From sequence record PP541512.1: 39,615 nt of DNA. The stretch is one strand, 5' to 3'. The notes below the pieces were generated by a model. It was given only the letters and a program-made list of their open reading frames with translations. It made no database searches and had not been told where the DNA came from. The position numbers were made by a program, and so were the translations under genes. Below are positions 2,256-2,331 of this stretch, piece after piece. Numbering within the stretch: position 1 is the first letter of the stretch; each line of letters opens with the position of its first letter. This stretch comes from Escherichia phage PSK1.

Positions 2256-2280
2256 CTTATTGAAGGGCCTATAGATTTAC

Positions 2281-2302
2281 CTTAACTATCACTATAGGGA
2301 CT
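2281..2302 (+). promoter_or_regulatory. Phage RNAP promoter (CTTAACTATCACTATAGGGACT), upstream of gene 13
   Basis: Matches the 11-copy in-window consensus TAAACTATCACTATAGGGA; T7-like CACTATAGGGA initiation core. Confidence 0.75.
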
Positions 2303-2331
2303 ATAGGCCCTTAAGGTTATAAGGAGACTTT

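What the first reader, a model, noticed from the sequence alone, without database searches (positions are those of the whole stretch)
2265..2310. Perfect 10-bp inverted repeat bracketing the gene 13 promoter
GGGCCTATAG (2265-2274) and CTATAGGCCC (2301-2310) are exact reverse complements separated by 26 nt that contain the promoter core. Read-through transcripts from gene 12 would fold the promoter region into a stable hairpin, possibly a processing or attenuation signal; transcripts started at about 2297 carry only the downstream arm, giving two different 5' leaders for gene 13.
Basis: seen in the sequence. Interest (0 to 1): 0.45.

Follow-up and report, generated by a model that had tools for sequence, protein, structure and literature searches.

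The report
RNase III-type hairpin enclosing promoter phi13
The inverted repeat is real and conserved, and it is most likely this phage's version of the "R13" RNA-processing hairpin that wraps the gene 13 promoter in T7 and T3, so it is an ordinary feature of T7-group phages.

Summary
The window is a whole, circularly permuted genome of a K1F/EcoDS1-like Kayfunavirus. It is actually 12 bp perfect (2263-2274 / 2301-2312) with a 26-nt loop. That loop holds almost the whole phage-RNAP promoter phi13 (-17..+6 = 2280-2302, start 2297).

A 5-6 bp lower stem (2253-2258 / 2314-2319) extends the helix. The sense RNA folds at -22.4 kcal/mol (z -3.3).

Curated records of T3, phiSG-JL2 and Yersinia phage R annotate an RNase III site "R13" at the same place, between genes 12 and 13 and enclosing phi13. 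In 18 non-Kayfunavirus relatives the 5' arm tracks the promoter sequence:
- 85% of cells are paired, against 39-54% when the partner is slid.
- There are 35 G.U pairs against 5 A.C in the core.

This points to pairing in the sense RNA rather than in DNA.

Within Kayfunavirus a 9-bp core and the lower stem are invariant. They persist around three different promoter specificity regions, but show no compensatory change. The 3' arm here is a downstream CTATAGG copy, not the promoter core.

No U-tract or class II signal follows, so attenuation is unsupported. Cleavage by RNase III is inferred, not shown. Verdict: a new member of a known kind, of low interest.

The parts
1..2255 (+). 3' part of gene 12 (tail tubular protein B). 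The gene starts before the window's permutation point; stop codon TAA is at 2253-2255.
   Evidence: ORF 129-2255; matches EcoDS1 gene 12
2253..2258 (+). 5' strand of the lower stem (UAACUU, includes the gene 12 stop codon)
   Evidence: MFE and centroid folds. Five of these pairs are predicted by RNAalifold on 15 Kayfunavirus sequences; U-A/U.G variation at one pair.
2263..2274 (+). 5' arm of the upper stem, AAGGGCCTATAG. The 9-nt core GGCCTATAG (2266-2274) is conserved across the genus.
2280..2302 (+). Phage-RNAP promoter phi13 (-17..+6), CCTTAACTATCACTATAGGGACT. Positions -17..+4 lie in the apical loop (2275-2300).
   Evidence: Consensus matches; annotated phi13 in EcoDS1 on identical sequence
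2297..2297 (+). Predicted transcription start (+1, first G of GGGA)
   Evidence: Position relative to the T7-type consensus. Inference; not mapped.
2301..2312 (+). 3' arm of the upper stem, CTATAGGCCCTT (+5..+16 of the phi13 transcript). It begins with a second copy of the promoter's CTATAGG box.
2314..2319 (+). 3' strand of the lower stem (AGGUUA)
2321..2326 (+). Shine-Dalgarno AAGGAG of gene 13, outside the hairpin
   Evidence: Sequence; left unpaired or weakly paired in the folds
2332..2793 (+). Gene 13 (internal virion protein A)
   Evidence: ORF; EcoDS1 gene 13

Best explanation
The repeat is the Kayfunavirus counterpart of the T7-group RNase III processing hairpin R13.

RNA polymerases that started at phi9/phi10 and read through the terminator after gene 10 transcribe genes 11-12 and then this intergenic region. 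In that RNA, 2263-2274 pairs with 2301-2312 and 2253-2258 pairs with 2314-2319. Together they give an interrupted helix of about 18 bp, capped by a loop that carries the promoter sequence.

Host RNase III is then expected to cut near the 3' base of the upper stem, around 2308-2316. This would leave the hairpin as a protective 3' end on the gene 11-12 message. It would release a gene 13-onward message whose 5' end lies close to that of RNA initiated at phi13 (2297).

RNA started at phi13 has only the 3' arm, so it is not a substrate.

Shown here: the structure, its position, its conservation, and sense-RNA-type covariation in relatives. Inferred: cleavage by RNase III, the cut position, and the effect on RNA stability.
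For: 1. Same position and architecture as annotated R13 sites.
- T3: stem_loop 'RNase III recognition site R13' 25443-25480 encloses promoter phi13 25457-25479.
- phiSG-JL2: same layout.
- Yersinia phage R: R13 24475-24525 encloses phi13 24500-24522.
- Folds of these and of T7 give one hairpin between the gene 12 stop and the gene 13 start.

2. R13 is an accepted T7 RNase cleavage site between genes 12 and 13. It is described as weak, and genes 11-12 are expressed only by read-through of Tphi.

3. In 75 of 78 distinct gene 12-13 intergenic sequences from relatives, the RNA folds with z below -2 (median -4.4).

4. Covariation in 18 non-Kayfunavirus relatives.
- RNAalifold finds the hairpin unaided.
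- 85.1% of cells are paired, against 38.9-53.8% with slid partners.
- Covariation score is 0.200 against 0.113 or less; 0 of 500 shuffles reach it.
- G.U 35 against A.C 5 in the core, and the sense fold is more stable than the antisense fold in 16 of 18. This indicates RNA of the coding strand, not DNA.

5. Kayfunavirus. The sequence is identical in K1F and EcoDS1. The 9-bp core and 5-bp lower stem are invariant in 15 distinct sequences, although the loop carries three different promoter specificity regions. One relative has A->G giving G.U (L036). A Kayfunavirus-like contig with another promoter has a 12-pair hairpin in the T7 register (L005).

6. The other long promoter-enclosing hairpin in this window is at phi6.5, where T7 has R6.5.

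7. A single RNase III cut that leaves a 3' hairpin stabilises the upstream RNA (review statement in PMC6993053).
Against: - No cleavage data exist for any Kayfunavirus.
- Within the genus there is not one compensatory double change, so pairing there is supported only by conservation plus one G.U.
- The outer 3 pairs of the 12-bp stem are not conserved; G-C at 2265/2310 is broken in 9 of 15 sequences.
- The 3' arm is in a different register from T7/T3. It is downstream of the promoter core rather than the core itself, so strict positional homology of the arms is not shown.
- T7 R13 itself is reported as a weak site, and T7 grows without RNase III. Any fitness effect may therefore be small.
- Part of the complementarity is a by-product of repeated palindromic CTATAG boxes.
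- EcoDS1's curated record annotates promoters and terminators but no RNase III site.
Confidence: 0.62

Rival explanations
1. The hairpin forms in read-through RNA but works without RNase III. It could be a structural block to 3'-5' exonucleases after cleavage elsewhere. It could also be an insulator that keeps the gene 12 and gene 13 translation units and RNA folds apart.
For: Stable, conserved sense-RNA structure. T7 R13 is only a weak RNase III site. T7 grows in RNase III-deficient hosts.
Against: The homologous element is annotated as an RNase III site in T3 and T7-like records. The two-stem shape with an internal loop resembles T7 RNase III substrates (own knowledge). This rival differs from the main explanation only in the nuclease involved.
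Confidence: 0.15
2. The repeat acts in DNA. It could be a cruciform, a dimeric protein site around phi13, or part of a promoter-dependent secondary replication origin.
For: The 12-bp repeat here is perfect, so it is equally good on both strands. T7 secondary origins coincide with late promoters such as phiOR and phi6.5 (PMC8373140). From memory only, phi13 has also been named as one.
Against: In relatives the pairing relies on G.U, which would be A.C mismatches on the other strand: 35 G.U against 5 A.C. The antisense fold is weaker in 16 of 18. The lower stem here also contains a U.G pair. A 26-nt spacer makes cruciform extrusion unfavourable (general knowledge).
Confidence: 0.07
3. It is a transcription attenuator, pause or terminator for read-through polymerases.
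For: A stable hairpin lies at the end of gene 12.
Against: No T-run follows the stem (AAGGTTATAAGGAG). No terminator-like site is found in 1900-2700. The nearest class II ATCTGTT signals are at 21697 and 27524. Genes 13-16 have only phi13 of their own before phi17, and in T7 read-through continues across this region.
Confidence: 0.03
4. It is a by-product without function. Local duplication of the palindromic promoter box CTATAG(G) created complementary arms that persist by descent.
For: Three CTATAG copies lie within 40 nt. There is no compensatory change within Kayfunavirus. A 10-bp repeat of the same flavour (TAACTATAGG/CCTATAGTTA) lies near phiOR.
Against: The non-palindromic parts (GGCC / GGCC plus AA/TT and the lower stem) are also complementary and conserved, while the loop between them varies. 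A hairpin at this position recurs with unrelated arm sequences across at least six promoter types. Only 0.12 such 12-bp repeats are expected per genome.
Confidence: 0.1

Closest known systems
T7 RNase III site R13 with promoter phi13 (Dunn & Studier 1983; close relative Yersinia phage R, JX000007, annotates it)
   Same: It lies between the gene 12 stop and the gene 13 start. The hairpin forms only in read-through RNA and encloses the phi13 promoter. Stability is similar (T7 -25.5, here -21.5 kcal/mol for the stem-loop alone).
   Different: In T7 the 3' arm is the promoter core itself (-8..+7; T7 27266-27280, pairing with 27234-27248), with two G.U pairs and a 17-nt loop. Here the whole promoter sits in a 26-nt loop and the 3' arm is +5..+16, a second CTATAGG box. 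The phi13-initiated RNA therefore carries the complete 3' arm.
T3 / phiSG-JL2 'RNase III recognition site R13' stem_loop (NC_003298 25443-25480; EU547803)
   Same: Same intergenic position. The promoter is enclosed by the annotated stem-loop.
   Different: 8 bp + 2x2 internal loop + 5 bp with an 8-nt loop. The arms have a different sequence (GUCUCCCU.../...AGGGAGAC), and the register is as in T7.
T7 R6.5/phi6.5 and R3.8/phi3.8 promoter-RNase III site pairs
   Same: An RNase III site is coupled to a late promoter, with the start site close to the cleavage site (PMC6938266). This window's phi6.5 is likewise enclosed by a 24-nt interrupted repeat.
   Different: Different loci. In T7 these are strong sites, while R13 is weak.
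T7 R1.1 model RNase III substrate
   Same: Upper stem, internal loop and lower stem, about two helical turns in total (own knowledge).
   Different: R1.1 has a small apical loop and a well-mapped single cut. Here the apical loop is 26 nt, the internal loop is one-sided, and nothing is mapped.
T7 Tphi-type (class I) terminator
   Same: A stable GC-containing hairpin in late RNA.
   Different: No U-run follows, so it fails the terminator pattern.

Membership tests
T7-group RNase III processing site R13 | Located in the gene 12 - gene 13 intergenic region, on the coding strand | tested here: met
   Hairpin 2253-2319 lies between the gene 12 stop (2253-2255) and the gene 13 ATG (2332). Same position as annotated R13 in T3, phiSG-JL2 and Yersinia phage R.
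T7-group RNase III processing site R13 | Stem-loop encloses or overlaps promoter phi13, so only read-through RNA has both arms | tested here: met
   Promoter -17..+4 lies in the loop and +1 at 2297 lies between the arms. The register differs: the 3' arm is downstream of the promoter core, not the core itself.
T7-group RNase III processing site R13 | Stable double-helical RNA of roughly two turns, typically interrupted by an internal loop | tested here: met
   12 bp + 5-6 bp separated by a 4-5 nt one-sided loop; -22.4 kcal/mol, z -3.3.
T7-group RNase III processing site R13 | Pairing maintained in evolution (conservation with compensatory or G.U changes in sense RNA) | tested here: inconclusive
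   Across other genera: clear. Within Kayfunavirus: the 9-bp core and lower stem are invariant, with one G.U and one U-A/U.G change but no double compensatory change.
T7-group RNase III processing site R13 | Cleaved by host RNase III in vitro and in vivo | not testable with these tools
   Needs an enzyme assay or RNA end mapping in rnc+ and rnc- hosts.
T7-group RNase III processing site R13 | Absence of RNase III antideterminant base pairs in the proximal and distal boxes (Nicholson laboratory rules, from memory) | not tested
   The cleavage position is unknown, so the boxes cannot be placed. No tool or held paper gives the rule table.
Class I (Tphi-type) / intrinsic terminator | GC-rich hairpin followed directly by a U-run | tested here: not met
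   0 terminator-like sites in 1900-2700. The tail is AAGGTTATAAGGAG.
Class II T7 RNAP pause/termination signal | ATCTGTT motif | tested here: not met
   The only copies are at 21697 and 27524.
Any Rfam RNA family | Covariance-model match | tested here: not met
   Only three sub-threshold chance hits in 1900-2700, none at the hairpin.

The most novel reading that the evidence does not exclude
In the K1F/EcoDS1 lineage the R13 hairpin was rebuilt by duplicating the promoter's CTATAGG box. The RNA structure therefore no longer uses the promoter core as its 3' arm.

This uncoupling could let promoter and RNA polymerase specificity drift or be exchanged without compensating changes in the hairpin. 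Three specificity regions are seen between invariant arms.

It also puts the complete 3' arm on every phi13-initiated RNA. There it might pair in trans with the free 5' arm of read-through RNA, or act in a promoter-dependent secondary origin. Either would be a role beyond simple RNase III processing.
Probability: 0.1. Interest if true: 0.45.

Novelty: new member of a known kind. Interest (0 to 1): 0.2.

Why it matters
Practically, the finding adds an unannotated regulatory feature to K1F/EcoDS1-type genomes. Their records list promoters and terminators but no RNase III sites. K1F-type phages are used in phage engineering and therapy work, so the hairpin should be kept intact when the gene 12/13 junction is edited.

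Conceptually, it gives a modest generalisation. A hairpin enclosing phi13 is present in nearly all sampled Studiervirinae, including gh-1-like phages with quite different promoters, and its 5' arm co-evolves with the promoter sequence.

It does not open a new question. The T7 paradigm has been known since 1983, and R13 is a weak, non-essential site there.

Tried and rejected
- Rfam scan of 1900-2700 at E up to 10: nothing at the hairpin.
- Literature: the K1F genome paper, the phiYeO3-12 genome paper, 'Refactoring T7' and Panayotatos & Truong 1985 are not held. Three searches gave nothing specific on R13 structure. The T7 R13 cleavage coordinate (27281) is therefore from memory only.
- RNAalifold on the gh-1-like group failed to recover the hairpin, because MAFFT misaligned the 5' arms of two subgroups. 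For that group I rely on per-sequence folds.
- A helix-length count against shuffles was uninformative: the grouping rule was too permissive, and 30-79% of shuffles passed. I replaced it with MFE z-scores.
- Three low-quality Enterobacter phage records with frameshifted genes (L111, L112, L115) were dropped.
- My start-codon heuristic truncated several K11-type sequences. Full-length representatives (L096, L081) were used in alignment A2 instead.
- Sigma-70 promoter and intrinsic terminator scans were negative.
- The attenuator reading and the DNA-cruciform reading were considered and given low weight, for the reasons listed under the rival explanations.

Full report
**What the window is**

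A 1.1-kb stretch around the finding matches 838 phage records. The best are 95-97% identical Escherichia and Salmonella phages of the genus Kayfunavirus, including EcoDS1. By comparison with EcoDS1, the ORF ending at 2255 is gene 12 (tail tubular protein B) and 2332-2793 is gene 13. The window is the whole genome in circular permutation: gene 12 runs across the window's ends, and the terminal-repeat region lies near 16 kb.

**The observation**

The perfect complementarity is longer than reported: AAGGGCCTATAG (2263-2274) and CTATAGGCCCTT (2301-2312), 26 nt apart.

The loop contains CCTTAACTATCACTATA|GGGACT. This matches the phage-RNAP promoter core that occurs 13 times in the window at up to 2 mismatches, against 0.7 expected. 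EcoDS1 has the identical sequence, annotated as promoter phi13. The start is at 2297.

In 200 Markov simulations of the window I counted perfect inverted repeats with a loop of 60 nt or less:

| Arm length | Expected | Observed |
|---|---|---|
| at least 10 bp | 1.9 | 3 |
| at least 12 bp | 0.12 | 2 |

The repeat as reported would therefore not stand out. The true 12-bp one does.

One caveat applies. CTATAG is a palindrome and part of the promoter core, and three of the window's 19 copies sit at 2269, 2292 and 2301. Half of each arm is therefore a repeated promoter-like box.

**Structure**

As RNA of the coding strand, 2253-2319 folds into three parts:
- the 12-bp upper stem;
- a one-sided internal loop;
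- a 5-6 bp lower stem, UAACUU (2253-2258, including the gene 12 stop codon) with AGGUUA (2314-2319).

The fold has -22.4 kcal/mol, z -3.31, and none of 200 dinucleotide shuffles does as well. The inner ten pairs have probability 0.99 or higher. The Shine-Dalgarno sequence AAGGAG (2321-2326) lies just outside the helix.

RNA starting at 2297 has only the 3' arm and folds weakly, at -7.1 kcal/mol. No T-run follows the stem, no terminator-like or sigma-70-like site is found, and no class II ATCTGTT signal is nearby.

**What it corresponds to**

Curated records of relatives annotate an RNase III site at exactly this place:

| Phage | R13 feature | phi13 promoter |
|---|---|---|
| T3 | stem_loop 'RNase III recognition site R13', 25443-25480 | 25457-25479 |
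| phiSG-JL2 | 25848-25885 | 25862-25884 |
| Yersinia phage R (T7-like) | 24475-24525 | 24500-24522 |

Folding these sequences and T7 gives one dominant hairpin between the gene 12 stop and the gene 13 start. Its 3' arm is the promoter core, about -8 to +7, and its 5' arm lies upstream. In T7 coordinates, 27234-27248 pairs with 27266-27280.

My recollection of Dunn & Studier (1983) places the R13 cut at 27281, immediately 3' of that stem. I could not verify this coordinate in a held paper.

Held papers confirm three points:
- R13 is a T7 RNase cleavage site between genes 12 and 13 (PMC6938266).
- It is a weak site (PMC5592923).
- Genes 11 and 12 are expressed only by read-through of the terminator after gene 10 (PMC5592923).

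EcoDS1 has the same layout: phi9, a promoter before gene 10, a terminator, then no promoter until phi13.

**Comparative evidence**

I collected 103 loci through gp13 and the C-terminus of gp12. They give 78 distinct gene 12-13 intergenic sequences. In 75 of them the first 75 nt fold with z below -2, median -4.4. One exception has no intergenic region at all (L066). Two distant AT-rich phages carry a terminator-like hairpin with a T-run instead (L024, L025).

The hairpin recurs with different arm sequences in T7-like, T3-like, two K11/KP32-type, gh-1-like and other promoter groups.

For 18 non-Kayfunavirus representatives:
- RNAalifold recovers the hairpin unaided.
- For the 17-pair helix, 85.1% of cells are paired, against 38.9-53.8% when the partner is slid by 1-3 columns.
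- Five pairs show double changes. One example is U-A in T7 against G-C in T3/K11 at the pair involving promoter position +7.
- The covariation score is 0.200 against 0.113 or less, and no shuffle of 500 reaches it.
- The non-Watson-Crick pairs are overwhelmingly G.U (35) rather than A.C (5) in the core, and the sense fold beats the antisense fold in 16 of 18.

The sequences are related, so these counts are not independent events. The direction is nevertheless clear: pairing is maintained in RNA of the coding strand, not in DNA.

**Within Kayfunavirus**

K1F and EcoDS1 carry the identical 12-bp repeat. In 15 distinct sequences the following hold:
- The 9-bp core GGCCUAUAG/CUAUAGGCC and five lower-stem pairs are invariant.
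- The outer three pairs of the 12-bp stem are not conserved; the G-C at 2265/2310 is broken in 9 of 15.
- One sequence has an A->G change giving G.U.
- One lower-stem pair alternates between U-A and U.G.
- There is no double compensatory change.

The loop between the invariant arms carries three different promoter specificity regions: ..CCTTAACTATCACTATA, ..CTATTACACCCTCACTATA and ..TATTTAACACTCACTATA.

One Kayfunavirus-like contig with yet another promoter (L005) lacks the downstream arm. It instead pairs GUCCCCUAUGGU with the promoter core ACACUAUAGGGGAC, in the T7 register (-19.2 kcal/mol, z -4.4).

So the K1F/EcoDS1 form is a register variant. The 3' arm is +5..+16, a second CTATAGG box, and the whole promoter sits in the loop.

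**Mechanism proposed**

Read-through RNA from phi9/phi10 folds the hairpin. Host RNase III cuts near its 3' base. The hairpin stays on the gene 11-12 message as a 3' protective structure; a single cut leaving a 3' hairpin is stabilising according to PMC6993053. The gene 13-onward message then begins a few nucleotides upstream of its ribosome-binding site, close to where phi13-initiated RNA begins.

The structure, position and evolutionary maintenance are shown here. RNase III cleavage, the cut site and the stability effect are inferred from homology.

I put this explanation at about 0.6. The main reservations are:
- the lack of any cleavage data for this genus;
- the absence of compensatory changes within it;
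- the shifted register;
- the weakness of R13 even in T7.

**Rivals**

- *A structural RNA element that does not need RNase III (0.15).* This differs from the main explanation only in the nuclease.
- *A DNA-level role, such as a cruciform, a protein site or a secondary origin (0.07).* T7 secondary origins coincide with late promoters such as phiOR and phi6.5 (PMC8373140). However, the G.U bias in relatives argues against DNA pairing.
- *An attenuator or terminator (0.03).* This lacks the required U-run or class II signal.
- *A functionless by-product of CTATAG duplication (0.10).* This is hard to reconcile with conserved non-palindromic complementarity around a variable loop, and with recurrence of the hairpin under unrelated sequences.

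**Verdict**

The feature is the local representative of a long-known T7-group element. It is not annotated in K1F or EcoDS1 records, and it differs in using a duplicated box as its 3' arm. It is a new member of a known kind, of low interest.

Noticed in passing
window 33124-33147 / 33208-33231 (promoter +1 at 33194): The phi6.5 promoter is also enclosed by a long interrupted inverted repeat (24 nt, 83% complementary, 60 nt apart). The RNA fold is -31.7 kcal/mol, z -4.0. It is probably the counterpart of T7 R6.5 and, like the phi13 hairpin, is not annotated in EcoDS1.
   Followed up: partly
window 16096-16107 / 16127-16138: The only other perfect 12-bp inverted repeat in the window (CTAAGGTCAGTA / TACTGACCTTAG, loop 19). 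It lies just downstream of the small ORF 15904-16062 (gene 19.5 position), near the collapsed terminal repeat. Its function was not examined.
   Followed up: no
window 15617-15626 / 15656-15665: A perfect 10-bp inverted repeat TAACTATAGG / CCTATAGTTA lies between the terminase (gene 19) stop at 15607 and promoter phiOR (+1 at 15719). It is again built on the palindromic CTATAG box.
   Followed up: no
window 15744-15756: A degenerate second promoter-like box (ATTACTATAGTGA) lies 34 nt downstream of the phiOR core.
   Followed up: no
window 2297-2315 and 33194-33211: The initially transcribed regions of phi13 and phi6.5 resemble each other beyond the promoter: GGGACTATAGGCCCTTAAG against GGGACTTTAGGACCTAAG. 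Both form part of the 3' side of their enclosing hairpins.
   Followed up: no
window 22441-22500 (promoter +1 at 22446): This early-region promoter is followed by a strong hairpin. Its outer stem starts inside the promoter's own CUAUAGG and pairs with a downstream CCCUAUAG, reminiscent of the T7 R1.1 region.
   Followed up: no
L027 (T3 NC_003298) about 555-570; L053, L028, L056: The T3 gene 12-13 spacer contains a run of 15 G just upstream of gene 13. Relatives have 10, 5 or 4 G, so the homopolymer tract varies in length next to the ribosome-binding region.
   Followed up: no
L041, L049, L114 and L043 against the window (alignment A3, columns 23-37): Kayfunavirus relatives carry three different promoter specificity regions between identical hairpin arms. 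This implies lineages with different RNA polymerase specificities and an otherwise conserved junction.
   Followed up: partly
window 2727-3176 against 2332-2793: The ORF for the HNH/endonuclease VII-like gene 13.5, read from its first possible start (GTG 2727), overlaps the end of gene 13 by 67 nt, and no in-frame ATG lies in its first 170 nt or so. In EcoDS1 the two genes are annotated as adjacent without overlap.
   Followed up: no
whole window: The window is a complete phage genome in circular permutation. Gene 12 runs across the window's ends, and the genome's physical ends and terminal repeat lie near 16 kb.
   Followed up: partly
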